A program made the position numbers and the translations under genes. Under the pieces are notes generated by a model that was not told where the DNA came from, did not search any database, and saw only the letters and a list, made by a program, of their open reading frames with translations. A stretch of 64,000 nucleotides of DNA from positions 19,902,001-19,966,000 of the forward strand of contig CM022667.1 of the NCBI GenBank assembly GCA_012295275.1, written 5' to 3'. The stretch comes from Chrysomallon squamiferum (Eukaryota; Animalia; Mollusca). Positions 8,236 to 51,100 of this stretch are shown piece by piece (the first letter of the stretch is position 1; every line of letters begins with the position of its first letter).

Positions 8236-15750
<7,515 letters not shown>

Positions 15751-17038
15751 GCGTATATCATATGGAGTTTTTCATTCATGTTTGTCATTATAAATAAATA
15801 AATAAAAGACTTTTTTAAATAAATTATGTTTCATTAATATTCTTATAAATATTAGTCATTTCAACATATAAAAATAGCTGTTGCAACAAAAATATTATTT
15901 GATCCCCAACTTTCACAAAGCAGAAAAGGTTTTTCTGCAAGTGTGAAAACTTTCCTTCTTTGTTTTTTTGTTGTCTTTATTTTTTTATTTTTGTTGATAA
16001 TGAATTTACTGAAAAATTTATTAATGTGAATTACACTCATACTGAAAACAGAATTCCAGTGTTTATGCACATTATCTTAAATGAATTTTGTGCAGTGTTT
16101 ATGAATTATTTATAATGTAACAAAGGATAAGAACAGTTAAATAATTAACAGAGTGAGATGAACTGAAAGAAAGATAAATGAACATCCACTGAATAATTGA
16201 AGTGAAACTGCACAAGGATCAAAGTTGTTACTTTATTATTTAAATTCTGTCTTTCCACACTAGTTACAGATGACTGGGTTTCATTATGTTTAGTTTGTTT
16301 CAAATAGAGAAGTGTTGTTGCCATAAAATCAGATTTCACCAGAGAATTCTGTGCAAATCAAAATTTATTAAATACTGTTTGTATTATGGAGAATGAAGAA
16401 CTGCTGACAAATATTGTTGTGACTGGTTTTCAAACAACACATGCCTGAAATATCTTCATTAAAATCGACTGATCTATTAATAATTACCCTTTTCTAACAA
16501 GACACCTCACTTTGGAAACAAAACAGATTTAAGATATTATCGTTTTAAAACAAAATTGTTGTTTAAGTGGTAAAACTATTTTATATTTAGACTTTTAAAC
16601 AATAAATTGAAAGAAAGCATTTTTAGATATTAATTTTGAGTGTATCAGAGGAAACCTGCTTGAGTTAATAATCTGATATATATAATGTACAAGCAGTTAT
16701 GAACTATAATAAAATATTTTGTTAAACTAACTATTTTCTCTTTTTTTTTTTAAATCTCAGTATTAAATGAAATTTAATGATTTATGGAAAATTAAAATCT
16801 TAAGTTTTTACATATCACTATTATCAGTAATATCGAAGATAAAAAGTCGTTTCCAATCCAGAAATATATAATAATATATTGTGGTATAGAGAAATTTGAG
16901 GATTCAGAAGGTAAATTGTAAGCCAAGCAATGCCAGTCACAGATGAGGAGATGGTGTCATCCAAGATCTATTTAAATTAAGGGGAATAACTCTAATTCAG
17001 AAGAATAAGAAAAAATAAACACCACTGGTCTAACAATA

Positions 17039-17051
17039 TTTCGGCGCCAAA
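17039..17051. promoter_or_regulatory. Near-palindromic E2F site upstream of CDT1
   Basis: TTTCGGCGCCAAA (reverse TTTGGCGCCGAAA) ends 16 nt before the CDT1 ATG. CDT1 is an established E2F target. Confidence 0.8.
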
Positions 17052-17067
17052 TTAGTGTGGTTTCAAG

Positions 17068-20000
17068 ATGGCGCAGCCCAGAGTAACAGATTACTTTACA
17101 AGCAAAAAGAAATTAAACGGTAGGCTACCCACGAAAAGAAGGAAAGTAGAATTAAGTGATAATGATTTAACATTAATCGAAGAAAAACCAAAGAGATCAT
17201 TGCATAGAGCACCTCTCGATCATGGTGCTAAAATAATCGAACAGTGTTTGCCCGTACCTTCGACAACAAAGACACGTAGAGAACCGAGAAATCGGATTCA
17301 GAAAGGTACTGTTTCTGTTATAAGTGCGACGAATACAAAAAATCAGCAGAAAATTACAGATATCTTAACAAAATCTGACAATGAATCCAATAAGTTATCT
17401 GTCGACAATGAACTTGATCATGCTGAAACTAGTGAAAGTCAAAATGAAAGTGTTTTCGAAAAGAAGGATGTTACACCAAGAAAGCAGATTAAGACGAACA
17501 TTAGAAATGAAAAGAAATCTCACAGCCATGCACAAGAAGATCCAGTTACACATGAGCAAAAAGACAACACTGAAGCTAGTTCTAAAATGCTAACGACAGT
17601 GACATCAAAACCTGAAAGAAAAGGTCTCCATTTACATTCACAGGCTGAAAACATTGAAATGGTAACACTAACTGAAAAGGTACATTTGTCAAATAATTAT
17701 TAAAACAAAATCATATCTCTATGCTTTATTTTTTCTCTTTCTTTTTTGTTTTTGTTTTTACTTTATTTATTATTAATATTCTAGTATAACTGATATTTTT
17801 AAAAGTTTTGTTGAATTTAAATCTGCCAGAAACAATAATTTATATTTATTTATTGTTATTTATTTTATTTAATGTTGTTGTTTGGACTTGATATTTATAA
17901 ATTAAATATAATCATTTACAAATTATTACTGCAAGAAATAATTTTAACATTGTAATGATTGTTCATATTTTTATAAATAGGGTTATAAATGCTAAATTCA
18001 GTCACGGTCTTAGTTGCAATATGAAAATTAGTTAACAAACAGTTTGTTAAACAAGCTGCTAAAATTCCATACTAATTTTATTGTTTTATTACATTAATTT
18101 GATTTCAAATATATATTTAAAAAAACAACAACAAAAAACTTGTTTATTTATAGCCAGCAGAAGAGCAACATGTTCATAGTATGATATCAGAAATGGTTGA
18201 TCAATCTGCCAGATTATCACCATTACCACAGCCACCCAGAAAGGTATAGTAAAATATAACAAGATGTTGTGTCATACATTACATTTGTCTCCCAAAGCCA
18301 GTATTTTCTATATGAAATGCATAAAATTTACTAATGCTATTGGTACTGTCATGTCACTGGTACATATATTTGATACGCTTATGTTGAAAGTTCATGAAAT
18401 CTCATGTTTTTCTATACTGTATGTGAATATAGAAGCATTTATTACTGTTGTTAATTCTTTAACTGTTATATATTTTAATAGCTTGATCATGAAAATTGTA
18501 ATAAAATTAATCCACTGTTTTTAAGAATTATGACTTTGTATCTTGTTTTCAAAAGGGAAAGAAGCTGACTTCAGAATTAGTGAAATCTCGTCTGACGAAT
18601 GTAGGCAAACTGGAAGAACTGAAAAAACAGTTACATGAGATTAAAAGATTGAAGAAAGAAGCAGAGAAAGAGCCACCCAAATTAAGGCAGTTCAAGAAAA
18701 TTGAAATAGAGGTGGAGCAGGTGTCACCTGTTAAAAGTCCAATCAAACTAGAAAAAAGGTTAGAATTAGCTCCTGTTACAGTATTGCAATATTTTTTATA
18801 TAAATATAAAGATTGTAAAATGGTCGGTGATACGGTAGTATTTTCCACAATTAAACTGTTGTCCACAAATTTAGATATATATATATGTGCTTTCTAAATT
18901 GTTATCTTTGATGTTTTCAGAGAAGTGAAGATTCCAGCGTATGAAAGATACCACCATCTTGTTACATCACCACCACCTACATTGACTCTGCCATTCAAGT
19001 ACAAAGTTCTTTCTGAGATGTTCAGGGGAATGGACACTGTGGTCAGCATGATGCACAACCGCAATGAATCCTGTACCTACTCTAAACTTAAATCAGCAGT
19101 CCAGTCCATGACGAAAAGGTATGTACATTGTCACAGGAATGAAACTTTAATCAGTTACAAATGTTTTAAACATTGTTTCATGGGTAAATTGATGCATAGA
19201 TAATTTTGGAAATTTGTAACTCTTTAAATATGTCACTGAAATTCACAACAGAAATGCTAACCAGGTCATGTAAAATTAACATTTTATTTTCATGAAATTG
19301 GATTATGCATAAAATCACAATGTTAAGGACTGTTATTTGATGTGATTGGTTTGTTTACACAAAGGTTTGGTTGGCCATTGCAGTCTACTTTGCTAATTAC
19401 ATAGGAGACCATCTGAAAGTGGGTATTATCTTATGTAGAAACATTATGATTTAAAGTTTATAACTATAACCATGATAAACCAGTGCTGTAATAAGTTGAT
19501 ATGAAAGATAATATCAGTAATGCTGTGGTGTTTCATAGCTAACAGCACTGTATCAGTTGTTATTATTCATAGGTTTATTTTATAGCAGCCACTGAACATT
19601 TTTTCTTCTTCAATATTATAGAAACTTTGAGAAGAAAAACATTGGCCAGATTAAAACTGTTTACCCAGAAGCCTACACTTTCCGTCAGGAAAGAGTTCCT
19701 ATGTATGGTGAGAGGTTAAAGGATTATCAACTGACAGTTGAGGCAAATCTCTCACAGGAAAATGGTTAGTAATTTACTTTATAAGTTAAAGCCTTTAGGA
19801 AAATAATATAAGAGGGGTATCCTTTTTTGTTAATAAACCATATGAAAAAGGCAAAACCTAAAGAAAAGTTCTGATGTCAGGATTAAGAAATAGATACAGC
19901 TATAGGCTTCTTTTATTTGTGTTCTAGTGATAGCTGGGTTTCTTTGTATGAAAAGTGAAATAGTGTGCTGAAGTTTTCCAAGTCTAGTGAATTTGTCTGT

Positions 20001-23000
20001 GTGATCTTCTGCATATGTGTATGGATTTAGTGTTAAAGCAAAACAAAAACAAAAACACTTCTTTTAGAATATATTTCACATCAGCAATTGAAATTAAGTT
20101 AGTGTTTATAATCACACAACAAACAGATCTTATTTCTAAAGAAAATTTATTGACTGCATTGATCCAAAATTATGCACTGCAGAAGCTGTAATTTGTTCAG
20201 AAACATGACCAAAATTACATACAACAAAATTGAGTATCTGATCTGAACATCACCATTTAAAAGACTCCATCATAAGTACCTAAACGTTACCCTCAGGTTC
20301 ATTTTCTCATAACCACATTAGAAAACAATTATTTAGAACTCACTTGATCATTGAAAAATAAAACTGTTACACTTAAACGAAAATCTGTATTTTTCAGTAA
20401 TATTAAAAACAAACTATAGTACAGAAGTCAGAATCAAAATGTAATAAATAAGTAATTATAAATTAAAAAGATTCACAATACAAACTGTAATATTTAACTA
20501 CATATTAAAGTTAGAAGTAGCAGATTAAATATAAAACTCTTGACTTCCATATTTTATTTATTTGGAATTATTAATTGGAGATTTTTCTGACTAGTTTGGT
20601 TTTTAATTTTCTTCAGAGGTGTGGATAATGTTTCATTTTAGTTCTTTTTTTATTGTTGTTGCTGTTATTTAAAAAAAAAAAATTCTAGACTTTAAAATGA
20701 ATGATTGTGTTTTCCAGGTTGTTTATTTCGAGTTGTGAACATGGCACTGTTTCTTCTGTTGTTATTTTGGTGGTTGTTCAAGACTTGTTCCCAAATAGTT
20801 GTGTTCAGAAAACATTTCATCAAATACAAAACAAATAGTTAATCTTTTGTTTGATTTATCCTTTAATTTTGTTGTACTAATTCAATAAATGAGTTGCCAT
20901 TTCTAAACATTTCATTGGATCGTTTTAATATCTTGATTCACAACTTGTTTATTCAAAATTGTTAATATTGTTAAATTTAATAATTATATGACTTTTAAAT
21001 GTGTCGTAATCAAATTTTATCTGTTATTTGTTGCATTTAAATGTTGTCTTACCCTGACAATTTTCTGGTTTTAAATGTATTGTTTAAATGCTGTTGTTGT
21101 TTTTGAAAAATATCTGTGAACACATCATTTCAAAATTTTGATAAAGAAATAATGAGTTTGCAGATTTGTTGTTTTCTTTTTGTCCTTAAATCATGGCAAT
21201 TTAATAATTTAGTGTGTTTTTTTAATTTGTTTATATAGGCATATGAAAATATGCAAATCTAGTTTTGCATGAACAATTTTTCATTCTTATGAAAATGAAT
21301 TTACATTGGTCTGGTTTTGGTTTAATTCTAGAAGCATCTCATACTTTGTTTCACTCATACAACTTTTCAGGAATTTATGTGGTTATTTATAACACTTCCG
21401 TGTTTTACTGACATTTTCCAGTAAATGAATTAGAGAAATCATAAGGTTACCGCTGACTAATTTTATATCTTTATATCTTTGTGGCATTCTGTTGCTGGAA
21501 AAACTAGTCCGACAACACTTGAGTTCTGATGTCCAAAACTATTAAGTTCAATAGACAATACTTAACAGAAACTTGTATCTCACTACTCATGTGTTCCACA
21601 GTTAGCTGCACATTTGCATTTATTGCCTATATTCACTACTACACCTGTATACTTCAGTACTGAAAACTTGAGGCTACAAAATATTTCAAAAATTGATGTT
21701 TATATTTTAACAGTGCTGCCTTGTATATTTTATTAAAACATTAGATATTGTTAAACTGTCTTCTCTTCTGTAATACAGGGAAGACGGCAAAGGCTTATTA
21801 TAAATCTATTAGACAACTAATTTTGTCATTAGCATATGCAGCACAGACAATGAAAACAAAAAAGGTTTCATAATGCAGAAAAATTATGATTATATATTGA
21901 TTTTATTAATTATTAACAAAATACGCTCAGATAAAGAGATAATGGAACTAATTAATTTGTCTGGTATTTTATGTACAGCAGTAATTATTGCTCATTAAAA
22001 ATGTATTCAGTGTATTGGTTGTTTTGCCATTCTTTGATTTGGTGGACAACTTTAAAAATGTCATGTTAAGTATCTGTTACTAGTTTAATTTGGAAACTTA
22101 AAATGTTATAAAATAATATAAACATACAAACAAAACATAATAAATTAAAAAATGTTAACCTTAATAGAACAAGCATTTTTTTAAAAACATGTTTTTGAAA
22201 TAGTTGGGTTCTGGCATAATGTAATACACACATATAAGCTGATTAAAGGAATATTTAGACAAAAATATTGTGACATTTTTTGTTTAATACAAATAATGCT
22301 ATATTTTGTTAACAGATAAAAATGGTTTAGTTAATGAATAATCTTTCTATTAGCTTAAATAAATAATGCAAAATGGTTCATAACTGGAATTCTTTATGGA
22401 TACTTTATTTTAAAACTGGAATTGTTTTGGAAAAAAATTAATTCTATATATTAATCACTATCCCTTTGTCATATATATATATATATATATGTAATGATAT
22501 AATAGGGCTATTGTTTTTAATAGTGTTATTATGTATTTAATGCATTCCCATTTCTAGCTTTGTGGACTTTAATGGATAGAATATGGTAAAATGATAAAAA
22601 TAGCTTGTCTTTGTGATAGAAAATGTATTATTTTTTATTAATATTATGAAATCTAAAATTTTGGTTTACCAGATGTATACAAATATGTATTTCTGACCAA
22701 AAATTATTTTAAAATTCGAACAAACATATGTAGCTTTTTTGTTGTTGTTTTTTTTAGAAAAAATCACTTTATTTTGATGATTTATTTATTTTATTCAGTG
22801 AGTGAAACTGGAAAAGGATAACACAAAAAGAGAGGTATTTACAGCCAGTCATTTACTTCACAGACGTCAGACATTTAAACATGGACTCACCTCTATAGTG
22901 AAGCAGTACCACAAGGTCAGTGATCAACAGAAAAAAGAAATGTTTGTCTATCATCTAAAATACATTAATCCCTTTGATTATTTATACCAAAAGAGAACCC

Positions 23001-26000
23001 TAATTCAATACAGAGGCCAAATAATCGCTACTTACATATACTTTTTAATAATATTAAGAAGGACAACATACATCCAACTGCTTTTAAATAAGGAGACTAA
23101 TTCATTAAAATAAAAAAGAATGCCCTTTTTTTTTTTTTTTTTTTGAGAGATTGGCTTGACTCTCTCCAATAACAAGTTCTCTGTCATCATTTTTGAGAAT
23201 TGGATTCATTTAAAAAATATTTAAAATAATAAATTAAAAAATAGTAAAGAAAGAGAGTAAAAGTAACGATGTGCCAATGATTCTCGTAATAAATTATTAA
23301 TATTATCTTTCTTGTGTAATACTAATATAAAAAAAATTAGAATGTTCATAATATATGCATAATATATATTTTTTAATATTTTTTTTACAGGACTTCCTAA
23401 AGAAACTGGATTATCCACTCAACATTCCAGATTCAAAATTAACTCGCTGGCATCCTCAGTTTCCACTGGATGAAGTTCCTGATGTTGAAGTTGCACCTCT
23501 TCCTGAGGCACCAGTTGTTCAGAAATACGAAACTGCTAAAGATGTTTTGAATCACACAAGAGGAAAAGTTGTTGAAAAGGTACAAAATATTGAAATTGTT
23601 CCAATAGATACATTAATTATGTGAAAATATATTTGTTATTGCAAATGTTATTAAAAGGAAATATGTATTAAATAGCAACTTATAAAATTAATTGCATAAT
23701 TAAAAATACTCATTTGGTTTTGTTTTATTGAGTTAATTATTATTATTTATTTATTTTTTGACAGTTTAAAAATAATAATTTATTAAGTAAATTTTTTATT
23801 TACTTTAATATCTGCTCATTTCCATAACAAATACACCACACACACACACACACACACACATATTATAATAAAATACAAGAGGGAAGTATAAGACAATTTG
23901 ATTGACTATCCATGTTGTTTTTTTACAAACATTATGATGCTTGCATATATGAGGAATGAAACTTTTTATTTTTAATAATAAACTTATTTCACAACAGGTT
24001 GAGAAAGCTCTTGAAAGTGTTGCTAAAGCTGCTGAGGATGATGTCAAACAAAATACTGAACCTAAAAATAAACCAACAAAGTCAGAAGATAAAGCTCACA
24101 AAGGCATACCTCTTTTTCTCTTACAAAAGGTAATTATTTAATAATAAGACATTTGAATTAGAAGTTACTGATTTATATTTCTGGTGACAACTTCAGCTAC
24201 TGAAATATAAGCTCAAGAAGGAAGCACTGAAGTGACGTTCTTTTATAACATATTTAAATAGAAATTTAAAAACAACTGATAAACTGAGAAATTAATTGGG
24301 TTTTTTAAATAAGAATTACATTAAAATCAGTAATCAGAGCCATTAGTATATTATTAAGTAAATGATGACTGTGCAGACCAAAAGACTCATAATTCAGAAT
24401 CTTGTTTAGTTGTAATGTATTAACACTGATAGTAAAAATAACAATCTCCTTGTACGTACTTGTATACATGTACAACATTTTAAGAGGTAGCAATATTTTA
24501 AAATTTAAGAACTTAATAATTGTAATTTTTTCCACTTGGCTGATGTACAAATACAGGTTTAAGAAGCTTTGGCAGTCTGAACATCAGATATATAAATTAT
24601 CATTTTTTAAGTTTGTGTGTTATTAATTGTTTATAGTGTACACAGAAAGTAGTAATTTGGACTAGCCACAGAACTGAACTACACATTGTGGAAAGATAAT
24701 ATTTATAAAGCTAATAATGACAGTAATTAATTCGTTTTTGATCTTTAAAAAGGAATTGCGTAACTATTTTTAATAGCATCAGTATATTGGTTGTGAAAGA
24801 TAACAGTTGATTCTAAACAAGGAACAACTGTTCTTGAGTTTATAAATGTTCTTTACTTCTAGATACCTACTACATTTCCAGTGGATAATGATGTGAATTT
24901 TTCATTTTCCTGTTAATGTTTTGATATTTGTATCTGATTTATTATTTTAAGATTCGTGCCAAAGAAGCTTTGAGACTGGAAGCAGCCTTGACACGTGATC
25001 CAGCAGAAGACAAGAAGTCTGACATGATAGCAAAGCTACCAGATATTATCCGAACATTACGAATGTATCCTTTAGTGATTGTTCTCTGTGAAAATGAATT
25101 AAACTTTCCTTACAGAAAATCAATACGTTTTCCAAAATTAATACTGAATTTACAAAGACATTATTTTATTTTAAAAAATCAAACATAATATTATTTGTAC
25201 ATTTTATTTCCTTTAATTGGTGGCAGTAATAAAGAAAATGCAGTAAACTACAAATTTTGTAAACAAAACATATATATATATATATATATAATAATTAAAA
25301 TTTGTTATTGTAATGTTTTCGTACAAGATTTAATATTTGCAGATAATTTCCTTAGTTAAATAAGGTATTATATAGCAGAGAAGAAACCTGCAGTTCCTAT
25401 GGAATCTGTAATCCAGACAATTTGTGAAAGTTCAAAAAATTCAATTTCATTAAGTGAGTAACAAAATTTGTTTTAAAAGAAAAGACCATTGATTTCAGTT
25501 TTAAATAAAGAGTTGTTAATAAATTAATATAGTCTTAATTTACATAAGAATTAAAGAATTTCAGTTTTCTTTAATATAATTGTGCTGCCATATTTTTCAT
25601 GGGTGTTATATTTTGAGACTCCTTAGCTACCAGTATTGTTTGTCATTTCCGAAGTTTTTAAAAACAAAAATTCTTTCTTGCTAATTATTTTATCTATCAT
25701 ATAGTTGTTAATTCCAGCTTAAATTATTATCATTTAAAAGTTCTTTGTCCTTCAATTAGAATATTAATCTTTATTTTTTATTTTGAAACTCTGTGCAGTA
25801 TTTTGCTATTGCACATTTTATGCAAAAAGGACATTCTGGCATGAATTTTGTTATTACTTTCTTTTGAAGAAAATGTTTTTAATTTTACTTCTCTAAGTTA
25901 TTTGCAAAACAAATAATAAAAATTTACATAGTGAAATGTACAGACAGTGAAAAAAACACAAAAAAAACATCATTTTTATTTGCTTTAATATTTACCAATT

Positions 26001-29391: not shown

Positions 29392-32300
29392 ATGTCACTG
29401 AAGCCTGGACTTGAGGGTGAGCAGCTTTTCAGAAGTTTGCGTCAGCTGGTGCTGAGTTTTGAACCACACATCAGAGATGCTGAGTCACTGAGTCAGACAG
29501 AGGAAGCACTTCAACATCTGGAAGAAAATGACGAAAATTTTCACAAGTTAATAATAATTACTTCTAAATCCATTATGGAATTCAGTCAAATTTTAATTTT
29601 AAAAATTTGAAATATTGGTGAATGTTTGTAAATTCTTTTCAAGATTTGATTGTAACCTAGCTATAAGACTCCTTATTATTTTTAACTGTCAAAATAAAAC
29701 ATATTCTTTTTATTTCTTCCTACAACTAGAAAAATGAATTTGTTCGGTTAGTAAACATATAGTCTTAAGAACAATTAAATTTTTTATTTTAAGATAAATT
29801 ATTAAAGTTCCACTAATTTCTTATGTTTCACTAACATCCGAATGTTAGTATTTTTAGTATTTTATTATATTTGCAATGTCTGATGTTAAAACTTATTTCG
29901 TTTTAAAGGTATGAATTTGTGAAGGAACTGAAACATCGGATTGATGAGTTACTTGGGCCACTGATAGATGATGAAATTGAAAGACATTCTACAGCCAGTC
30001 ATGTTAGTTCTGGAAGTTCTGACACCCTGGTTGGCCGCATCACTGATCAAATAATCCATTCAAAACAGTGAGAATTTAAATATAGTTAAATTATACATCA
30101 CTCAGTGCAGAATGCTGAGGATTTCTCTTCTGTGTTTTTGCAAACAGATGCTGATGATATTCTGGAGAAATAACAAATGGCTTTGTTTTGATATGCTTCC
30201 ATTACATAATGTATGTTATTTTGAAGTTAAATATTTGAAATACAGTACATTTTTGAATTTGATCAGATTGAAGACACTCAGATTTCAGAAGTAAAAGTTG
30301 TGAAAGAACATTCATGTTTGTATTTCAGATATTCTGAATTTAGAGGTAAGCTGTCAAAGAACATTCGTGTTTGTATTTCAGATATTCTGAGTTTAGAGAT
30401 AACCTGTCAAAGAACACTCATGTTTGTATTTCAGATATTCTGAGTTTAGAGGTAAGCTGTCAAAGAACATTCGTGTTTGTATTTCAGATATTCTGAGTTT
30501 AGAGATAACCTGTCAAAGAACATTCATGTTTGTATTTCAGATATTCTGAGTTTAGAAGTAAGCTGTCAAAGAACATTCATGTTTGTATTTCAGATATTCT
30601 GAGTTTAGAGATAACCTGTCAAAGAACATTCATGTTTGTATTTCAGATATTCTCAGTTTAGAGATAAGCTGTTAAAGAACATTCACGAAGCCATGGACAG
30701 ACTGATGCAGAACTTTGAGCGTGAACTGTCTGCTGGTCGCCATGGAGAGATGGTGCTGCACTCGCGAAACAAGACGATGGTTGTGGAGGACGATGAGGAG
30801 GTATCTTCTTGTGATAGCATGTTTGCGCAGGTGATTTTTGCTTGGCTTTTGCTCTGCCTTATGTTTTATTACATATTTTATTTTTAAAAATGTCAAAAAG
30901 TAAAGAATTAATTTATCTTCCTTTAATTCTTGGGACTTTTAAAAACTAAAAGAGATATTTAATAATTAATTGAAAATATTATATATTTTAAGTTAAAGGA
31001 TTCCCAGAATACAAAGATGAATTGTAAGTTCTATCTTTTTCTTACTTTCTTGCAAACATTCATAGAAATGATTAATTCCAAATTAAAATATTTCCATATC
31101 ATGCTGTCCTCTTCAGGTTAATGTTTACAATACACACTTTATTATTATTTGAAAAAAAACAAAACAGTACTTATCTCTATTTTTGTATTTGATCTTTCGT
31201 GTAAAATTTAAGAGAACATAGTTTATATTTGATGCTAATTTTCTGTTTGCAGTTTATCAGTAATTATTTATGTGGCAATACATAGCTAGACAAGCATAGA
31301 ATGTCTGACAATAACATTTATGGATATCTTCAACAATCTGGGCTATAAAATATATTTAAAATGATTTATTGTTTTAAAAAGATATTTAGGTCATGCAGTA
31401 AAAGTGAGATCATTGACAAAGTTTTTATTTATTTATGCCTGCTTGCTTGCTTGCTTTTTAGTTTAGTTTAAATTTAGACATTTGCATGCAAGATATGTTT
31501 ATAACCTCTTATTTTCTAACATTAGATTTTCTGTTTCATTTTATTTAGTTTTTATGCAAGTCTTCTTTTGAGTGTTAATATTTTTTATTTGGTAGCTTTA
31601 GATAAGCTTCATAAAGCTACTAACAAGTTGTAAATGATGAATAAATACATTGAAAGTATGGAAATTAAATAAAAATTTTTATGAATATTATATATATATA
31701 TGTTTATGAAAGTAAAAATTTTCATTATTATATATATATATATAATGAAACATTTTACTTTCATATTCATAAACAAAAATGATTGATATCAGTTAATTAA
31801 ATGCATTTAATTTAAACAACTGTAATACTGTTAATTCAAAAAAAATACTTAATAATTTTTAAAATAATATTTTTTAATTACTGTTGTTATTTGATAATGG
31901 TTCAAACACACAATAATTGTTTTAATCAGATAATTGCTTTAAAAGATTTTTAATTTGTTTACATCATATCAATATAAAATTTCAACTATTATTATTATTT
32001 TGCTTCATTTAATAATGATTTTATTTTGAAACAATCTTTATCAATTAATTATGTTTTTTAATGAAAAATAAATTATGATGTAAAATGTAAGAGATTTTAA
32101 AATATACACAATGTTCTTCCATTTTTTGGTGCATGTATTGCATATTAATATTAATAAATATTTTGAATGGAAACTAATTTATGTTTTTCTTTAAACATTT
32201 TGATCAGTTATATAACTAAGTTATTAACAGTTTAACACCAGTGTTTGTTAGAGACTCAGATACACAGTTCAGATTTATTTTTTATTAGGGAAGTGTGATG

Positions 32301-36120: not shown

Positions 36121-39100
36121 CATGCACACTTTTTTTATATCAAATGACAACTTTATATATCTAATATAAATATTAAAAACAGGCTCAGAAACACACACCA
36201 GCATGGCCACATGAAAAAATAATCATATCTTTTTATTTATTTTAATTTTTAAATTTTTAGCCAGTGGTGATACAAAGAGAACATTTTACACTGGCTCAGA
36301 ACTGGATTATCTCTACTTCGTTCATTCTGTCTGTTTCCTGGGACGAATGCTTTGCTTTGTCAATGGACGAAACTTTTTCCCTATTAAAGTGAAAGACGTC
36401 AAAGGTAAATTCTTGTTACAAAAATTACTCCTCAATAGTTAACGGCTAGAAATGTAAATCTGTCATTTGGTGAAACTTAAATATTGCTGTACAGTGAAAC
36501 TGTGGGTTACGAACTTAATCCGTTCCAGAGCTTGGTTCGTAAACTGAATTGTATGTAAACCAAAGTGTTGAAGTAATGTAAATGTAAACAATCCGTTCCA
36601 GCCCCCAGAATCATTTTATTTTCATTGTTTTCAGGGCTTTTTTTACACAGAATAAACATAGAATAGATAGAAATAACATGTATTTATCTTTACTAGATGT
36701 TGATGTCAAAACCAATGTCAAAAGAAAGCTTGTTGTAGCGTGTTGCTGTAGTTCGTAACTCAGGACATTATTCGTAAACTGAAACAAAAATTGAACAAGA
36801 TCACAGTTCATAATCTGATTTGTTCATGCTTCAAGGTGTTTGTAACCCGAGGTTCTGCTGCATTTTGTTAAAATGACTTTTACATTTCAGTTTGTTGACT
36901 TTTAGATTTCAGATAAGCCTGTTTGATTTGATAAAAAAGGAAGATAAATAATTTAATTGTTTGTTTGTTTCAGAGCCAGTCAGTGTTAGTCAGTTGTTGA
37001 AGGCTCTGGCTTTGTTTATTGTTGACCCAAGCAGCACTCCACAACACATCAAATCTTCATCAAGTAAGTCTGAACAGTTAGAAATATATATATATTTCTT
37101 CTTGTTAATAGCTTTTTTCACTGTATTATAAAAATGAGAAATGTCACTGGATATGTGAAACAGTGTTTAATTTTTTTTTTTTTTTTTTCATTTGGAAATG
37201 GAATTATCTATTATTGGATTTGTTTGTTTGTTTCATTTTATTTTAATTTTATTATTATTATTATTATTTTTTTTTTTTTAGAGTTGTGGGTTAGTTATGC
37301 ATACAGAGAGTTGTGGGAAAATGGCTATGAAATATGTTGTTCATGTGTTATCTGAGAAATCGTTCTTTAATTTGATTTTGTCTATTAGAAAAAAAATCTG
37401 GGTTATAAATTTAATTTCTAATTCAGTATCAAAGTGTCTGTTTTTAGCTAAATAATTTATGTCTTTGACTACTAATGTATTTGTAATATTTTAATAGCTG
37501 TGTTTGACTAAGTATTTTATTTGTAATATTTTAAAGCTGTGTTTGACTAGGTATTTTATTTGTAATATTTTAAAGCTGTGTTTGACTAGGTATTTTATTT
37601 GTAATGTTTTAATAGCTGTGTTTGACTAGGTATTTTGTTGTAATGTTTTAGAGGTGTGTTTGACTGTGTATTTTACTTGTATGTTTGTGTTCAGGTATGT
37701 ATGATCCAGCCAGTATTGTGAAGTCTGTGTTTGTGTATTTTACTTGTATGTTTGTGTTCAGGTATGTATGATCCAGCCAGTATAATGAAGTCTGTGTTTG
37801 TGTATTTTACTTGTATGTTTGTGTTCAGGTATGTATGATCCAGCCAGTATTGTGAAGTAAGTGTTTGTGTATTTTACTTGTATGTTAGTGTTCAGGTATG
37901 TATGATCCAGCCAGTATAGTGAAGTCTGTGTTTGTGTATTTTACTTGTATGTTTGTGTTCAGATATGTATGATCCAGCCAGTATAGTGAAGTCTGTGTTT
38001 GTGTATTTTACTTGTATGTTTGTGTTCAGATATGTATGATCCAGCCAGCATAGTGAAGTCTGTGTTGAAGGAACTGTGTCACTCTGAACAGGTGTGTGAG
38101 ATTTGTCTCTGCAATGATGACTTCACAAACACTCTGCTCTCACCAGTCGCTCAGTTCTACGATTATGACGACATGGTAAGTACCATCCAGTTTTAGTATA
38201 CATATTTGTATTATAGATATATTAGATTATGAGAAATAAAAATAAATAAATAAATTTAAAAAAAAAAGACAAAAAATACAGAATTAACTATTGTGGCTTT
38301 TAGAAGCAATTAGTTAAAACAATACCATAGTCAGCTTTATTAAATTGTATAATGATTATAAGATAACAAGTATTTTGTTCTGTTATGTTGTCAAGGAGAT
38401 GAGTCTACCCACTGAAGATACTCTGCTTCATGTGGCAGATATTCTCAGCTTACTCGCTTCCTCCACCAGAGGGCGCCGGCATCTCTTATATGGAGAAAGA
38501 CATGACATGTTTTCTAGGACCAAGTGAGTAGATTTGTAATAACTGACAAGTCATATGCATTTATTCTTAGCTTACAGCACATTTTTGGTATATAACTTAA
38601 AATGATACATTTCCAGTCTTGAAATAAAATAATTTAAGATTACTTACATATTGGTTATTATCTGGTTTCAGAACCACCTGTTTCAAAATATTGAGATAAA
38701 ATGTGTTTTCAATTCATGTAGTCATAATAATGTCATTAAATATTTTTTTATTTTATCAGATATTTGTAAAATTGTAACAAATGCATGTTTGATATTTTCA
38801 GCTGCTCAGAATATTCTGATATAATAAATATAATTACCTGTTCATTAATTGTTTATAATTCATGATTAAATATGGTTTTCAGATCCTTAGCTTTTTACAT
38901 GTTTCTGTTTGAATCTATATTCCAGTTCATTAGCTAGTTTATAAAATTGCGATCAAACACATTTTTCAGATTTTAAACTATTTATGAAATTGTGATTTAA
39001 CATATTTTTCATACCTTAAGCTATTCATAAAATCATTTTTTTCAGATCTTAAGGTTGTGTGAAATGTTTTTTTTTGTTCAGATCTTCGGCAGCTCATGTG

Positions 39101-42100: not shown

Positions 42101-45100
42101 CATTAAATTATATCCATAATATATGAATAATAATTTTAAAAAGGTCAAGCCCATAATTTAATAATAACACACCATAAACATAATTTTTAAAACATAAGGA
42201 ATTATTCATTTAATAATAATGATGTGTTTTATTTCTGTTATTTCAGCATTTAGTGAGACTTCTGAACATTCTATCAGCATTCCCGGCAGTGTATGAGGTT
42301 TTAGCAGACAAACCACTGCCAGTCAAAGAGAGCTACGGCTTCAGACAGATACCAGACACCATTGATGTGAGAGAAACATATTTACCTTTTCATTTTTACT
42401 AACTACTTATCTGTAATCAGTTCACTGAATAGTCACATTTTCCTTGATTTATAAAACATATTGTTGTGTGTCACTTAGTGTGGATGATTGCTAATAACAA
42501 CACTTAGTCTGGCAGCTATAGGTTTCCTTGCTTTCAATTACTGACCATAAAATACTTTTATAATATTCATGGATAAATGGTTAAACTTGTTATGACTTGA
42601 TCAAATATTTAAATTTTAATTATACAAATTTTAATATTGCACAAAACAGCTGAAAAAAAAAGAAATTAGAACCACTAAAATGCAGCTGACTGTTAAAGAA
42701 ATACAATGGAAGTCTTGGTTTATTCATAATAATGTTGTTGATTTTTAAGAATTTATTCATGATACAATATATTTCAGGGTTTGCTAGATCGACTGACAAT
42801 CGTAGACACTCCAGAAAAGATTCATTCTCTTTTTAACTATGAACAGTCTCATGTTTTTGGACTGAGGTAATTCAATTTTATAGTTAAATAAATAAATTAT
42901 TTATATATATGTTTGTGTGTGTTTGTGTGGGTGTATTTTTTTTTTATTATTATTATTATTATATCATTTTTGGTTTATCTCTTCTGTTTTCTAAATCTTG
43001 CTGTCAGTATTTCTAGGCAATAAATATTAAAAATTACAGTTATTACAGCTACAAATTTAAAGCCAGAGAGTATTTCACATTACAGTGTTTGACTGTTTTT
43101 AATGTGTTCACAGGGTTCTGAGTGTGATGGTTTGCTGTCTGGACACATTTCTCTTGTTGCAGTGTCAGTACAAGTTCCAGGAAGTTCTCCTCCGAGCCCA
43201 GGCTGGTAACAAACACGACGGGTTAGAATCTTTTACATACTTCACATACCACAAGTAGCGTTAACTCTTGTTACAGTTAAATATTTCACATACCACAAGT
43301 AGCGTTAACTCTTGTTACAGTTAAATACTTCACATACCACAAGTAGCGTTAACTCTTGTTACAGTTAAATACTTCACATACCACAAGTAGCGTTCACTCT
43401 TGTTACAGTTAAATACTTCACATACCACAAGTAGCGTTAACTCTTGTTACAGTTATATACTTCACATACCACAAGTAGTGTTAACTCTTGTTACAGTTAA
43501 ATACTTCACATACCACAAGTAGCGTTAACCTCTTGTTACAGTTAAATACTTCACATACCACAAGTAGCGTTAACTCTTGTTACAGTTAAATACTTCACAT
43601 ACCACAAGTAGCGTTAACCTCTTGTTACATTTAAATACTTCACATACCACAAGTAGCGTTAACTCTTGTTACATTTAAATACTTCACATACCACAAGTAG
43701 CGTTAACTCTTGTTACAGTTAAATACTTCACATACCACAAGTAGCGTTAACTCTTATTACAGTTAAATACTTCACATACCACAAGTAGCGTTAACCTCTT
43801 GTTACATTTAAATACTTCACATACCACAAGTAGCGTTAACTCTTGTTACAGTTAAATACTTCACATACCACAAGTAGCGTTAACTCTTGTTACAGTTAAA
43901 TACTTCACATACCACAAGTAGCGTTAACTCTTGTTACAGTTATATACTTCACATACCACAAGTAGCGTTAACCTCTTGTTACATTTAAATACTTCACATA
44001 CCACAAGTAGCGTTAACTCTTGTTACATTTAAATACTTCACATACCACAAGTAGCGTTAACCTCTTGTTACATTTAAATACTTCACATACCACAAGTAGC
44101 GTTAACTCTTGTTACATTTAAATACTTCACATACCACAAGTAGCGTTAACTCTTGTTACAGTTAAATACTTCACATACCACAAGTAGCGTTAACTCTTGT
44201 TACAGTTAAATACTTCACATACCACAAGTAGCGTTAACCTCTTGTTACATTTAAATACTTCACATACCACAAGTAGCGTTAACTCTTGTTACAGTTAAAT
44301 ACTTCACATACCACAAGTAGCGTTAACTCTTGTTACAGTTAAATACTTCACATACCACAAGTAGCGTTAACTCTTGTTACAGTTATATACTTCACATACC
44401 ACAAGTAGCGTTAACCTCTTGTTACATTTAAATACTTCACATACCACAAGTAGCGTTAACTCTTGTTACATTTAAATACTTCACATACCACAAGTAGCGT
44501 TAACTCTTGTTACATTTAAATACTTCACATACCACAAAGCGTTAACTCTTGTTACAGTTAAATACTTCACATACCACAAGTAGCGTTAACTCTTGTTACA
44601 GTTAAATACTTCACATACCACAAGTAGCGTTAACTCTTGTTACAGTTAAATACTTCACATACCACAAGTAGCGTTAACCTCTTGTTACATTTAAATACTT
44701 CACATACCACAAGTAGCGTTAACTCTTGTTACAGTTAAATACTTCACATACCACAAGTAGCGTTAACTCTTGTTACAGTTAAATACTTCACATACCACAA
44801 GTAGCGTTAACTCTTGTTACAGTGAAATACTTCACATACCACAAGTAGCGTTAACTCTTGTTACAGTTAAATACTTCACATACCACAAGTAGCGTTAACT
44901 CTTGTTACAGTTAAATACTTCACATACCACAAGTAGCGTTAACTCTTGTTACAGTTAAATACTTAACATACCACAAGTAGCGTTAACTCTTGTTACAGTT
45001 AAATACTTCACATACCACAAGTAGCGTTAACACTTGTTACAGTTAAATACTTCACATACCACAAGTAGCGTTAACTCTTGTTACATTTAAATACTTCACA

Positions 45101-48100
45101 TACCACAAGTAGCGTTAACTCTTGTTACAGTTAAATACTTCACATACCACAAGTAGCGTTAACTCTTGTTACAGTTAAATACTTCACATACCACAAGTAG
45201 CGTTAACTCTTGTTACAGTGAAATACTTCACATACCACAAGTAGCGTTAACTCTTGTTACATTTAAATACTTCACATACCACAAGTAGCGTTAACCTCTT
45301 GTTACATTTAAATACTTCACATACCACAAGTAGCATTAACTCTTGTTACATTTAAATACTTCACATACCACAAGTAGCGTTAACTCTTGTTACAGTTAAA
45401 TACTTCACATACCACAAGTAGCGTTAACCTCTTGTTACAGTTAAATACTTCACATACCACAAGTAGCGTTAACTCTTGTTACAGTTAAATACTTCACATA
45501 CCACAAGTAGCGTTAACTCTTGTTACAGTTAAATACTTCACATACCACAAGTAGCGTTAACTCTTGTTACATTTAAATACTTCACATACCACAAGTAGCG
45601 TTAACTCTTGTTACAGTTAAATACTTCACATACCACAAGTAGCGTTAACTCTTGTTACAGTTAAATACTTCACATACCACAAGTAGCGTTAACTCTTGTT
45701 ACAGTCAAATACTTACCATACCACAAGTAGCGTTAACTCTTGTTAGTTAAATACTTCACATACCACAAATAGTGTTAACCTCTTGTTACAGTTAAATACT
45801 TCACATACCACAAGTAGCGTTAACTCTTGTTACAGTTAAATACTTCACATACCACAAGTAGCGTTAACTCTTGTTACAGTCAAATACTTCACATACCACA
45901 AGTAGCGTTAACCTCTTGTTACATTTAAATTCTTCACATACCACAAGTAGCGTTAACCTCTTGTTACATTTAAATACACGAGGAAATTTTGATTAAAGAA
46001 TTAGCCACATTACCAACTACAAGATCTAGATTATAAAATAAAACATTTCTTTTTCTACTTTATCTTAAAATAATGCATTATATTACAAAAATGAGAAAAG
46101 GGTAATTCCAACAAAAATGAAGGACATAATCCTCACAAAAAAGGTCAATTGAGGAGTAATTGAAAAATTAAGTTAATAAAATAAGTCATGTCACAAGTGT
46201 TGTTGTACTTTCAGTGACAAGATCATTATTGACATGTTGTCAGTGGAGAGGAACTACATACTAGTAAAAACATATCTAGTTGGAGGTCCGTCTGAACGAG
46301 TTGTCCCTCCAAAATCTCTACCAGAGGTAAGTCTGCTTAAAACTCAGCTAAAATTGATTTATGTATTACACTCCCTAATATTTTTCTAAATATACTGAGT
46401 TCATAACTGAAAAAAACAAAACACTTGACACAGAAATAGTAAATTAATGAGTAATATTTATTGTCTATCATTTAAACAAATGTATTTTTTGTTTTGTTTT
46501 TAAAGTGTTATTTCTTTTCTTATAGGGAAAAGTGTGTTCTTTTCCATATCCACTGTTTGAGTCTTACCCACTCCCGAGAGAATATTCACCAAACCTGGCA
46601 GGCAGATCAACTATTAAACAAGGTAAAGTACTGATCTGTTGACTGCTGTTATCAATGCTGACACAGATAAATCTGTACAGTGTTTTATATATTTAAACAT
46701 GGCTCATTTTGATTCCTTTATTATACAGCTGTTACTGCAGAAGACGAGAGAGGATGAGAATGTTCTGCAGATCCTCCTTGAAGAGAAAATAGTTTAAACA
46801 CTTCTTTTTTATAATTATTAGTTCTCCACTCTCAGACATTTATATTATGAATTTCATAAACTTGTACATGTTTTCATAATTAAATAAGCAGTTTATTTGC
46901 TGATAGCTGTTCTGTCAGACAGTATCTTATGTTTTATTTTGTATTTGATTAAACAGTACAAAATTAATATTATTCAGTATTTACACTCCTCCAGCATTCA
47001 CCACTAGCTATTTTACACACAGATCTAATTTTTACATGCCTGTCCACCTTTTGCTCTATCACTTTATACACATTTCTGGTATTTTTAATTATTTAGTGTT
47101 TTTACATATGAAGTTATAAAATTGTTGTAGTGTTGTTCCCTGTTTGTTTCAGCCTTTGTTCAAACAGCCGAGGAAATTGAAGGTTTGTTGTGTGCAGTGC
47201 TGGCCCAGCCCATCACAACCCTGTTTTTTTACACAAACCTCACACACAAAACACTGCAGCAGGGGTCTCAACCTCAAAGAAAGAAAAGGGTCATTATGTA
47301 CTCAAAAAGAGGTCTAGAGGGCCAAGAATAAGGGTGTGGTATGGGTGGGTGTTATCATTTTCAGGAGCTACACAGCAAAGCTGATAAGTAAATAAATGTA
47401 ATACTTCAAATATTCAGCGATCTTTATTTCTGGAACATGTCAAGCCTATGGCAGTGACAGAATGATGTTACATGAAAACAAAGGGATGATTGCAGGCCAT
47501 GTGTTTGAGACTCCTGTTCAATAGCATCTGCACACGCACACACCACTTACAGTCTTCATTTCAGAGTGTCAGAGATCTGTGACAAGTTCTGCTACAACAC
47601 TCACATCATGGCTGGACAGCTGAGTGTTGTTGGTTCAAAGCTAACAGAATTAAAGCATTTGGTAGATTCAGAGAACAGTTTAATAACTGACAGTTTCTAC
47701 AAAATGAAACCAACGTATTTTTAAAATGGGAACTTCAGTTTGAAATATGCCAAATCCTTTTATTTGTTTATTTTTTAAATTAATTTGTTTTCTTTTTCAG
47801 TGATTTAAAGTTTTCTTTCTTGTTTTGTGAGTTTGTGGGTTTTTTAAAGCAGAAACCTCTTTGGAAGTCAGCACAAACAAAAGTGTTATAATAATATAGT
47901 AAAGACTGAATTTAACAGACAATCGTTCATTACCAACAAAAATTACATGGATTAGTATCTATGAAATAAACATTTTCTATTAAAACTGATGAATATCAAT
48001 TAAATACAGGTGTTTTATATCAGAGGTATTAAATTTATTAAAAGCATTATGATATTACAATCTTATCATTTATAAACGTTTGTAATTTAAAGAAATTCAG

Positions 48101-51100
48101 GTATCGGTGGTGACCTCTTTGTTAGTCTGTTAAATCAAGAGTTTACTGTTGTTTATTTTGAAGTTGTTTGGCTGGAACGGAATGTTGCTTTATTTTTTTT
48201 TATACGTTATTTTATTTGTTGTGATAGTCATAAATATGTAGAAACTGAAAAAGAGATTTAAAAAAAAAAAAAGAAGAAAAGAAAAGATGAATGCAGCTTG
48301 TGTGTGATAAACAAAATATTAGTATAATTGTATGATATTGAAAATAAAAATATAGTGACTTTGTTCAGAAGGGACATGCTACTGTTGATGTTCTGAGGAT
48401 ACCAGATAAAGATGTCTGCACTATTACTTCCAGTTTGACATGTTACTGCAATAAACAGTTGACTTCTTTATTTACTAACTTGTTCTCAGTCTTTCATTAA
48501 TACGCATTGTTAAATGAATTTAAGTGGTTGTTTTTGTTATTATGTTGTTAGTTTGTTTTTCTTGCATTTTTTTTTCTATTTCAAATCTGTATTATTATTA
48601 TGATTATCATCATCATCATCATTACCATTATCATTATTGAAATAATTTTTTATATATATATAAATTTACTTGTTATGTATAGATAATATTTTTTACATCT
48701 TAAATAAAAATACTTTTTTAATTGAATCAAAGGTTTATGTTTTCAGATATCATATTACAATTTTATACCTAACGTAACTTGCCACATTGTAAAATATCCT
48801 GATACAAATGTGTTAATAAATCAAATAATGACAAAAGTCAAATTTAATATTTTTTTTAATATTATTATTTTTTAATATAATTGGTGTTATATATTTCAGA
48901 TAATTTATACATTATATTTTATGTCCATTTTCTTCTTTCTAATTTGTGATTACATTTCAGACAATGAACTAACCAAGTTCCTGAGTCAGAAGGTGGACAA
49001 GAAAGCAGCATGGATAGAGAAAGTAAGAGTGCTCTACTCAAAATTCCTCACAACAAATCCAGACCAGACAAAAGGCATATGTGAGTTTTATCATCATCTT
49101 TCTGAAAATTTAGTAATATGTCAACTTTACAACATCTTTTAATTTTATATTTAAATTTTAAATTTTCTTTTTTCTTTTATAAAATCACATCTGTTGGAAG
49201 ATTTTTGTTTTTGTTTTCAGTACTTTAGCTACAGTCATCTCAAGCAGTATGTTTTGTTTGTTGTCAGTATGTCTGTTGGTAATTGGCAGAGTAACATCTA
49301 TATTAATTTACAGTTGTTTTATTGTACCACAAGAGTTAATAGTACATGATTGTCCTGTCTACTGGCAGGTGCAGTGAAAAAGAACCTTTATTGCTGTCAC
49401 TTACATTTTTTTCTTTCATATCATTGTACAAAACTCCATGATGTAGTAATCATTATTCATTGACAGTTGTTATCTCCAAGAATAGCATGTGGTGTTTTTT
49501 GTTTGTTTTTCAGTACTTCAGCAGCTGTTGGAGCAAAGTGTTCATGCTCTTAGTCAGATGCCAGAAGATGCCATATTTCCACTCCTCGAATTCTCAGGTT
49601 AGAAAAAATCTACTCTGTAAATATATTAAATTTAATCATCCATTCAGAACAGTTCATTCATTTTAATGCAGGCTTTTTGTGAATGCTTTAGCTGTTGGAT
49701 GTTAAACATATTTTTAAAACTATAAATTTTTAAAATAGCAACTTGATAAAACATAAAAGTTGTTAATTCTGTAGTCACTTTTCTCATTAGTTCCTGTTGA
49801 AGTCTTTTCTCATGAGGTCATAAATATATCTTGTTATATATAAATTATCAAAACCTGATGTACAATTTGTTAATAAATTACTTGTTTTCTTCTAGAAAAT
49901 GAGACATCAGTGAAGAAATTTGTTTTGTCTCCTCTTCAACAACTTGGCATAAAAGTTGCAGTCAGGTGAGTGTAAACTGATCACTCGGGTAAACAAACTG
50001 TTCTGTATTTTTAATTCTTTGTGACAATATTAATATTGTTAAATATTTACCAGGTATAAGAATGTTGTTACTGTTTTAGGTATGGGAATCATCTGAAGGT
50101 TGTAAGAATGTTGTTGCTGTTTTAGGTATGGGATTCATCTGAAGGTTGTAAGAATGTTGTTACTGTTTTAGGTAGGGGATTCATCTGAAGGTTGTAAGAA
50201 TGTTGTTATTGTTTTAGGTATGGGATTCATCTGAAGGTTGTAAGAATGTTGTTACTGTTTTAGGTATGGGATTCATCTGAAGTTTTAGAATGTTGTTATT
50301 GTTTTAGGTATGGGATTCATCTGAAGGTTGTAAGAATGTTGTTGCTGTTTTAGGTCTGGGATTCGTCTGAAGTTGTAAGAATGTTGTTACTGTTTTAGGT
50401 ATGGGATTCATCTGAAGGTTGTAAGAATGTTGTTACTGTTTTAGGTATGGGATTCATCTGAAGGTGATCAACACATCAGCGGAGGCCACAGACTGTCTGA
50501 CTCAGCTGTTAAAACAAACAGCTTGTTTCTTGAAACAGCAACACAAGACTGGCAGAGCTAAAACATCACTTCGTATCCTTCTAGAATATTAACATCATAA
50601 CAACACTTTGAGCATTTAGCAGTCATTACTTTTAGTGATAGCTTTAGTGTGTGTGAGTAGTAACAGTTTCCATGTATTGTATGATTTTTAGAAACAGCTT
50701 TAAAATCATTACTGGGTTGTAACAGAATATCTAACGTATTTTATGAAATGTTTTTCTGGTCCATTATGCTATTTGGGCATCATCTACTACCATAGTTTTC
50801 AAAAAGAGATTAATCAATATCAGGTTAGTTTGAAATTTGAAAATATCGAAACAAGGGTAACAACAGAAATAACTTTGTATAATTAGGTAATTTGTATGAT
50901 ACAAAATTTCTTTAACAGTGTCTTAGGTTACATATCTGGCAGTTACCCAGGATTTGATTGGTTTGTTGCGACCATCTTCCTTCTCTTTAACGGTAACTTA
51001 AACAGAACATGGAACTTTCTGTTCAAGTTTTCATCACTGGGAACATCAGGATACTTATGGATGGCAAGATTACATGCATCTGTGAGTATGTTAGACAATT

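What the first reader, a model, noticed from the sequence alone, without database searches (positions are those of the whole stretch)
37665..38066. 67-bp acceptor array in which decoys are recursive-splice-like CAG|GTATGT sites
The four upstream copies read TTCAG|GTATGT, an acceptor immediately followed by a strong donor, which is the architecture of zero-length-exon ratchet points. The last two, including the real exon 14 start, read TTCAG|ATATGT. One base therefore separates potentially self-removing decoys from the functional copy. Caveat: copy 5 (37962) is a decoy without this escape.
Basis: partly seen in the sequence, partly recalled or inferred. Interest (0 to 1): 0.7.

Follow-up and report, generated by a model that had tools for sequence, protein, structure and literature searches.

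The report
Snail splice-acceptor "mirage" repeat
In a snail broad-minded (TBC1D32) gene the end of an intron plus the start of the next exon is repeated six times and the assembled RNA joins only to the last copy, so this is likely a tolerated repeat of a kind known from lancelets, and the donor-like base in four spare copies likely comes from one mutation that spread rather than from a built-in self-removal device.

Summary
Six 67-bp copies (30 nt intron + 37 nt exon) span the intron 13/exon 14 border of a gastropod broad-minded gene. Copies 1-4 have G at exon +1; copies 5-6 have A. RNA contigs from 3 of 3 RNA runs laid (one study) join 37063 to 38030, the last copy; contigs cannot show rare intermediates. 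The closest relative has Asn at the junction, so A is likely ancestral and G one derived change spread through adjacent copies. A selected ratchet is poorly supported: the intron is 966 nt, the regenerated donor scores below the donors downstream of it, the nearest decoy lacks GT, and a second array in the gene has six strong decoys with no +1 GT. One oddity remains: 2-3 of 6 variant events in this array create donor-like sites (about 2-3.5% expected each; post hoc). This is a 'mirage' exon-border minisatellite as described in amphioxus, and the idea that AG|GT repeats can splice themselves out is in print (PMC10809524). The scan has already noted such arrays in this genome and in several others. 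Low interest.

The parts
36974..37063 (+). Coding exon 13 of the broad-minded (TBC1D32)-like gene; donor GT at 37064
   Evidence: RNA contig pieces and joints; junction model
37064..38029 (+). Intron 13, 966 nt, skipped as one block in the mature RNA contigs
   Evidence: table 5 (skips 966, GT..AG, runs X1-X3)
37460..37681 (+). Intronic 39-bp tandem array (5.7 copies) abutting and sharing sequence with the 67-bp array
37665..37731 (+). Copy 1: decoy acceptor, first exon-like base 37695 = G (AG|GT)
37732..37798 (+). Copy 2: decoy acceptor 37762 = G
37799..37865 (+). Copy 3: decoy acceptor 37829 = G, plus a private two-base change that makes a consensus-like donor at 37857
37866..37932 (+). Copy 4: decoy acceptor 37896 = G; private T>A at -9 adds an upstream AG and a moderate donor at 37884
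37933..37999 (+). Copy 5: decoy acceptor 37963 = A, no GT; one base different from copy 6
38000..38066 (+). Copy 6: functional acceptor (AG 38028-38029) with branch-point-like motif at about -20; runs on into the unique exon
38030..38175 (+). Coding exon 14 (146 nt), donor GT at 38176
   Evidence: residues from 38032 are 79% identical to P0001
29392..52098 (+). Host gene: broad-minded/TBC1D32-like, 33 coding exons, 1299 aa
   Evidence: tblastn with P0001, junction search, stop-free translation

Best explanation
This is a 'mirage' minisatellite: a 67-bp piece spanning the intron 13/exon 14 border is repeated six times, the assembled mRNA uses the last copy, and the G in copies 1-4 is likely a single A>G change that would have spread through neighbouring copies by ordinary repeat turnover. 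Shown: the array, the use of the last acceptor in contigs, and a premature stop if any decoy were used. Inferred: slippage or unequal crossing-over made and homogenised the array. Inferred: the last copy wins because it is nearest the exon 14 donor (146 nt, against 213-481 nt for the decoys) and alone carries the full exon. Inferred: rare use of decoys is cleared by nonsense-mediated decay. The AG|GT copies may be used now and then as recursive or cryptic donors, as a side effect and not as a selected function.
For: RNA joins only 37063 to 38030 in 3 of 3 RNA runs laid. The closest relative P0001 and the abalone P0002 have Asn at the junction, which needs A at +1 if the intron phase is shared. 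The G copies form one block; copies differ at 1-5 of 67 sites. All 5 decoy acceptors, all 12 acceptor-donor pseudo-exon combinations tested and exon 14 skipping give premature stops. Controls in the same gene: the 53-bp array has 6 of 6 decoys without +1 GT and with acceptor scores (12.3-14.3) about equal to its real site (12.7); in the 46-bp array the functional copy also starts GTATGG; 7 of 32 exon starts in the gene are GT. The regenerated donor (7.6) is weaker than downstream donors (8.6-10.3) for 4 of 4 G copies. A long upstream and short downstream intron behaves as exon definition for competing acceptors in human data (PMC9225289, passages); here the introns are 966 and 220 nt. The same architecture with normal splicing is described in amphioxus (PMC3087553 section 16) and human CBS 844ins68 (PMC2630376, passage).
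Against: Donor-creating changes are in excess in this array: 3 of 6 events by the local matrix (null 7 of 201 single changes) or 2 of 6 by U1 match (null 4 of 201), P about 0.0008 and 0.006. Pooled over three arrays (19 events counted; indels and one 46-bp copy left out) P is 0.008 and 0.021. The test is post hoc and the matrix crude. No ratchet-like site was found in 14,432 nt of the gene's other intron sequence, so these sites are unusual locally. The junction residue is Ser in 7 of 39 aligned homologues, so protein constraint alone may not explain why copy 6 keeps A. All RNA evidence is contigs from one study, which drop rare forms. One difference in the exon 14 piece of all three RNA runs is not located by the tool (table 8).
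Confidence: 0.72

Rival explanations
1. Donor sites in the decoys are kept by selection because they neutralise the decoy acceptors, either by recursive removal or by U1 binding over the AG and masking it.
For: G is likely derived and confined to decoys. 2-3 of 6 variant events create donors. Each G copy has acceptor, regenerated donor and a downstream donor, like an RS-exon. PMC10809524 (Discussion read) proposes that AG|GT repeat expansions are less harmful because they can be spliced out, and that such sites are depleted at annotated junctions.
Against: The regenerated donor is weaker than the downstream donors. Copy 5 is unprotected. The 53-bp array does without +1 GT, and its variable sites remove or weaken donors; none of the five substitution columns in the 46-bp array creates one. 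The intron is 966 nt, and introns under 1,000 nt favour conventional lariats in human data (PMC10156609, passage). Copy-to-copy steps of 67 nt would be shorter than any of the gene's 32 introns (shortest 123 nt).
Confidence: 0.12
2. The G copies act as poison cassette exons: a decoy acceptor paired with the next copy's donor (67 nt) or the copy 3 donor (28-162 nt) is included at some rate and sends the message to decay, lowering broad-minded output with copy number.
For: Acceptor scores of G copies (6.0-6.4) exceed the real one (5.3), and donors of 9.1-9.3 follow them. All 12 combinations tested give premature stops. Donor competition favours inclusion when the downstream donor is stronger (PMC8605326, passages).
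Against: No RNA contig covers 37071-38008 or joins into a decoy in 3 runs, though contigs drop rare and decayed forms. There is no sign of conservation or regulation.
Confidence: 0.1
3. The copy number or the G/A pattern is partly an assembly or polishing artefact.
For: Near-identical tandem copies are error-prone (general knowledge). No laid contig spans the array, and run X5 shows one 39-bp unit fewer in the adjacent array.
Against: Run X5 holds a G-type unit and reads through the unique flank to 37694, although X5 may be the sample the window came from. Copies carry private variants that simple collapse would not make.
Confidence: 0.06

Closest known systems
Amphioxus 'mirage' minisatellites (Adh3, globins BflGb6/BflGb9, troponin C, PGBD5); PMC3087553 section 16 read whole, PMC3902484 passages read
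   Same: Tandem units made of an intron 3' end plus exon 5' start; six units as in one BflGb6 haplotype; normal mRNA made; many but not all units carry AG/GT signals; block-wise homogenisation with a distinct boundary copy.
   Different: Host is a gastropod; unit 67 bp (BflGb6 150-160 bp, Adh3 10-72 bp); length polymorphism not shown here; a derived +1 G marks the upstream block.
Human CBS 844ins68 (PMC2630376, introduction passage read)
   Same: 68-bp duplication of an intron/exon junction; the distal site is used and normal mRNA results.
   Different: Two copies, not six; no AG|GT difference between the copies in the passage read. The hnRNP H/G-run mechanism reported for it is recalled, not read, and this unit has no G runs.
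Dual-specific (AGGT) splice sites in tandem repeats, UBC and VCX3A (PMC10809524, abstract and Discussion read)
   Same: Tandem array of AGGT sites that could act as donor or acceptor; the paper already suggests such expansions can splice themselves out.
   Different: There the units are coding and in frame, and use of the sites is shown; here the unit shifts frame, lies in an intron and use is not shown.
Drosophila ratchet points / RS-exons (PMC8605326 passages read; PMC10156609 passages read for human sites)
   Same: Acceptor directly followed by a donor, with a short out-of-frame cryptic exon and a downstream donor.
   Different: Ratchet points are conserved, mostly in long introns and generally stronger than the cryptic exon's donor; these sites are recent repeat copies in a 966-nt intron with the weaker donor.

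Membership tests
Mirage minisatellite | Tandem unit spans an intron/exon boundary | tested here: met
   30 nt intron + 37 nt exon, six copies
Mirage minisatellite | Terminal copy is the real boundary and normal mRNA is made | tested here: met
   37063 to 38030 in 3 of 3 RNA runs, contigs of one study
Mirage minisatellite | Block-wise homogenisation with a distinct boundary copy | tested here: met
   +1 pattern GGGGAA; +20 private to copy 6
Mirage minisatellite | Length instability between haplotypes | tested here: inconclusive
   No contig spans the array; no whole genome held; no related locus found
Recursive-splicing ratchet point | Acceptor directly followed by a donor | tested here: met
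   Copies 1-4: acceptor 6.0-6.4, regenerated donor 7.6, both near the gene's medians
Recursive-splicing ratchet point | Cryptic exon with a downstream donor | tested here: met
   Strong donors 28-67 nt downstream for copies 1-3, 196 nt for copy 4
Recursive-splicing ratchet point | Regenerated donor stronger than the cryptic exon's donor | tested here: not met
   7.6 against 8.6-10.3 on a crude 30-site matrix; U1 matches 7 of 9 against 8 of 9 for the next G copy, equal (7) for the other downstream donors
Recursive-splicing ratchet point | Mostly in long introns | tested here: not met
   966 nt; human recursive sites do occur in short introns, at lower use (PMC10156609)
Recursive-splicing ratchet point | Site conserved across species | tested here: inconclusive
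   No orthologous DNA available; the outgroup peptide implies that the G is recent
Recursive-splicing ratchet point | Intermediates seen (lariats, nascent junctions) | not testable with these tools
   All runs offered were contigs
Dual-specific splice site | One AGGT shown to be used as both donor and acceptor | not testable with these tools
   Motif present in copies 1-4; no joint at these places in contigs

The most novel reading that the evidence does not exclude
Acceptor mirages are actively disarmed: selection fixes donor-creating mutations in the decoy copies (three here), so that a wrong landing is re-spliced away or the decoy AG is masked by U1, while the functional copy is purged of donors, as in the exon 3 array where it has lost an internal donor that three decoys keep. 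Such arrays would be nurseries of new recursive splice sites.
Probability: 0.1. Interest if true: 0.55.

Novelty: new member of a known kind. Interest (0 to 1): 0.2.

Why it matters
As it stands it adds a gastropod case to a known repeat type and shows that exon-level cues can pick the last of six near-identical acceptors. It is a convenient natural minigene, because G-type and A-type decoys sit side by side. If the excess of donor-creating changes held genome-wide, it would show how recursive splice sites are born from duplicated exon borders, which would interest splicing and intron-evolution specialists.

Tried and rejected
No whole genome is held, so no genome-wide count of such arrays. 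A scan of metagenome contigs for relatives of exon 14 found 460 pattern matches and 0 confirmed. Lack of RNA cover over 37071-38008 is not taken as proof of absence. X5 depths were not used as copy number. RNA structure hiding the decoys: 37866-38100 folds no better than shuffles (z +1.11, 179 of 200 as good). Rfam: 0 matches in 37064-38200. Opposite strand: one 30-aa ATG frame only. In-frame use of decoys as extra coding exons: rejected, all stop early. Enrichment of junction-spanning arrays in the gene: 3 of 7, expected 1.63, P 0.21, not significant; nearness within 50 nt is 7 of 7, expected 2.96, P 0.002, but the threshold was chosen after looking. A Pfam scan failed on a frame slip and was not repeated; family names come from the precomputed domains and source names. 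My recalled version of the Reed and Maniatis proximity rule was corrected by PMC9225289: the intron-centric rule favours the upstream acceptor and only the exon-centric rule favours the last copy.

Full report
Observation. The window holds a perfect-register array at 37665-38066, period 67, 6.0 copies, 96% matches. Each unit is 30 nt of intron end (branch-point-like motif at about -20) plus 37 nt of exon start. First exon-like bases are 37695, 37762, 37829, 37896 (G) and 37963, 38030 (A).

Host gene. Residues from 38032-38175 match a broad-minded-like protein of Gigantopelta aegis at 79% identity (P0001; 1 hit among 3 candidates), so the host is a closely related snail. tblastn and a junction search gave 33 coding exons from 29392 to 52098; two junctions (introns 3 and 25) were set by hand, and the result is a stop-free 1299-aa frame. 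The array sits at intron 13 (966 nt) / exon 14 (146 nt).

What the RNA shows. Five runs hold the stretch, all as contigs; I laid four (three RNA runs of one study and X5). In 3 of 3 RNA runs one contig joins 37063 to 38030, GT..AG, with no letters fitting both sides; no contig joins into a decoy. A G at +1 in the mRNA would have let the joint slide by its match to the intron start, so the mRNA most likely has A (inference). Each RNA contig has one difference in the exon 14 piece that the tool does not list, probably close to an end of the piece; I could not locate it. Contigs drop rare forms, so recursive intermediates are neither shown nor excluded. X5 holds a G-type unit but may be the source sample.

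History of the +1 base. The codon is split A|NN: A at +1 gives Asn, G gives Ser. P0001 and the abalone protein P0002 have Asn, so A is likely ancestral and G derived, assuming shared intron phase. Across 39 aligned homologues (3 of 42 partial or distant ones dropped) the column is variable: Asn 5, Ser 7. The array has seven variable columns, six events, and +1 reads GGGGAA: one mutation in a contiguous block, as repeat turnover would give. The chance that one of six events is this A>G is about 0.06.

Does it work as a ratchet? I built position matrices from 30 of the gene's 32 introns (intron 13 and the minor-type intron 29 left out). They are crude. G copies score 6.0-6.4 as acceptors against 5.3 for the real site. 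As donors in the pre-mRNA they score 9.1. After a first splice from exon 13 the donor has A at -1 and scores 7.6, against 10.3 for the native donor. For copies 1-3 a stronger donor follows 28-67 nt downstream (9.1-9.3), for copy 4 at 196 and 280 nt. In Drosophila the stronger of the two donors is generally used (PMC8605326, passages), so these copies would tend to give a cryptic exon, not a clean zero-length step (inference). Every decoy acceptor (5 of 5) and every pseudo-exon tested (12 of 12) ends in a premature stop. Human introns under 1,000 nt favour conventional lariats (PMC10156609, passage). Copy 5, one base from the real site and nearest to it, has no GT.

Controls in the same gene. 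A 53-bp acceptor array precedes exon 3: 6 of 6 decoys lack +1 GT yet score as high as the real acceptor. A 46-bp array precedes exon 29: the functional copy also begins GTATGG. For these two, use of the last copy rests on homology and frame, not on RNA. Seven of 32 exon starts in the gene are GT, and 3 regenerate a donor above the 25th percentile. So decoys are tolerated without the escape, and AG|GT at real exon starts is ordinary.

How the last copy is chosen (inferred). It is closest to the exon 14 donor and alone has the whole exon; decoys would give exons of 213-481 nt. In human data competing acceptors with a long upstream and short downstream intron follow exon definition, which favours the site nearest across the exon (PMC9225289, passages). 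Here those introns are 966 and 220 nt. Leakage would be removed by nonsense-mediated decay (established pathway, not tested). RNA structure gives no help.

Donor-creating changes are in excess in this array: +1 A>G, a two-base change in copy 3 that makes a consensus-like donor at 37857, and T>A at -9 in copy 4 (strong on the local matrix, only 6 of 9 U1 matches). Only 7 of 201 single changes (matrix) or 4 of 201 (U1 match) would do this; P is about 0.0008 for 3 of 6 or 0.006 for 2 of 6, and 0.008 or 0.021 pooled over 19 events in three arrays, with indels and one 46-bp copy left out of the count. The copy 3 change equals an overwrite by the preceding four bases, a simple slip. The test is post hoc, and in the other two arrays the donor-affecting variants weaken or remove donors. 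No ratchet-like site occurs in 14,432 nt of other intron sequence. I keep the selected-donor reading at about 0.1.

Known kinds. This is a 'mirage', described in amphioxus with normal splicing, with AG/GT signals in many but not all units and with boundary copies excluded from homogenisation (PMC3087553, section 16 read whole; PMC3902484, passages). Human CBS 844ins68 is a two-copy equivalent with distal site use (PMC2630376, introduction passage). The idea that AGGT-bearing repeats are tolerated because they can be spliced out is in PMC10809524 (abstract and Discussion read). It works like a mirage and meets three of four mirage features, the fourth inconclusive; it resembles a ratchet point in motif but fails donor dominance and intron length, so I do not file it there. 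Searches listed no paper on mirages in molluscs (titles and abstract starts seen); most subscription papers are outside the library, and I opened no supplements. I reached the mirage reading before looking at earlier findings; these then showed like arrays in this genome and in others, unchecked by me.

Verdict. Real, correctly described, and most likely ordinary: new member of a known kind, interest 0.2.

Noticed in passing
window 30295-30685 (acceptors 30329-30647): 53-bp acceptor array before exon 3. Decoys 1 and 3 translate like the Gigantopelta protein at three codons where the functional copy differs, and decoys 1, 3, 5 keep an internal donor 17 nt into the exon part that the functional copy lacks; the donor-killing base is shared with decoys 2, 4, 6, which suggests exchange between decoys and the coding copy.
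   Followed up: partly
window 50057-50465 and 50573: 46-bp acceptor array before exon 29, with eight decoys and GT at +1 in all nine copies; the exon ends at a GTATCCTT donor, which matches the minor (U12) consensus as recalled.
   Followed up: partly
window 43233-45977: 62 copies of a 44-bp unit fill intron 23, starting 11 nt after the donor; units end in an acceptor-like TTGTTACAG but do not copy the exon border.
   Followed up: no
window 38860-39082: Five degenerate acceptor-like repeats 33-87 nt apart before exon 16, possibly an old decayed array.
   Followed up: partly
window 29392-52098: All 7 independent minisatellites in the gene lie within 50 nt of a splice junction once collapsed to one unit (expected 2.96, P 0.002, threshold chosen after looking).
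   Followed up: partly
window 59498-60132, minus strand: 26-bp array of branch-point-like units abutting an apparent acceptor at about 59497 on the minus strand; only the last unit is followed by AG. Gene not identified.
   Followed up: no
window 38030-38176: One difference from the window in all three RNA contigs is counted but not listed by the tool; position unknown (table 8).
   Followed up: no
window 37511-37551: A contig of run X5 lacks one 39-bp unit of the adjacent array: allele or assembly collapse.
   Followed up: no
window 36450-36870: High depth and many loose ends in X5 and the RNA runs point to a dispersed multicopy element in intron 12.
   Followed up: no
window 10200-15000 and 17000-25100: Exons whose translations look like OSGEP/Kae1 and CDT1 (names recalled from the peptides; not searched).
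   Followed up: no
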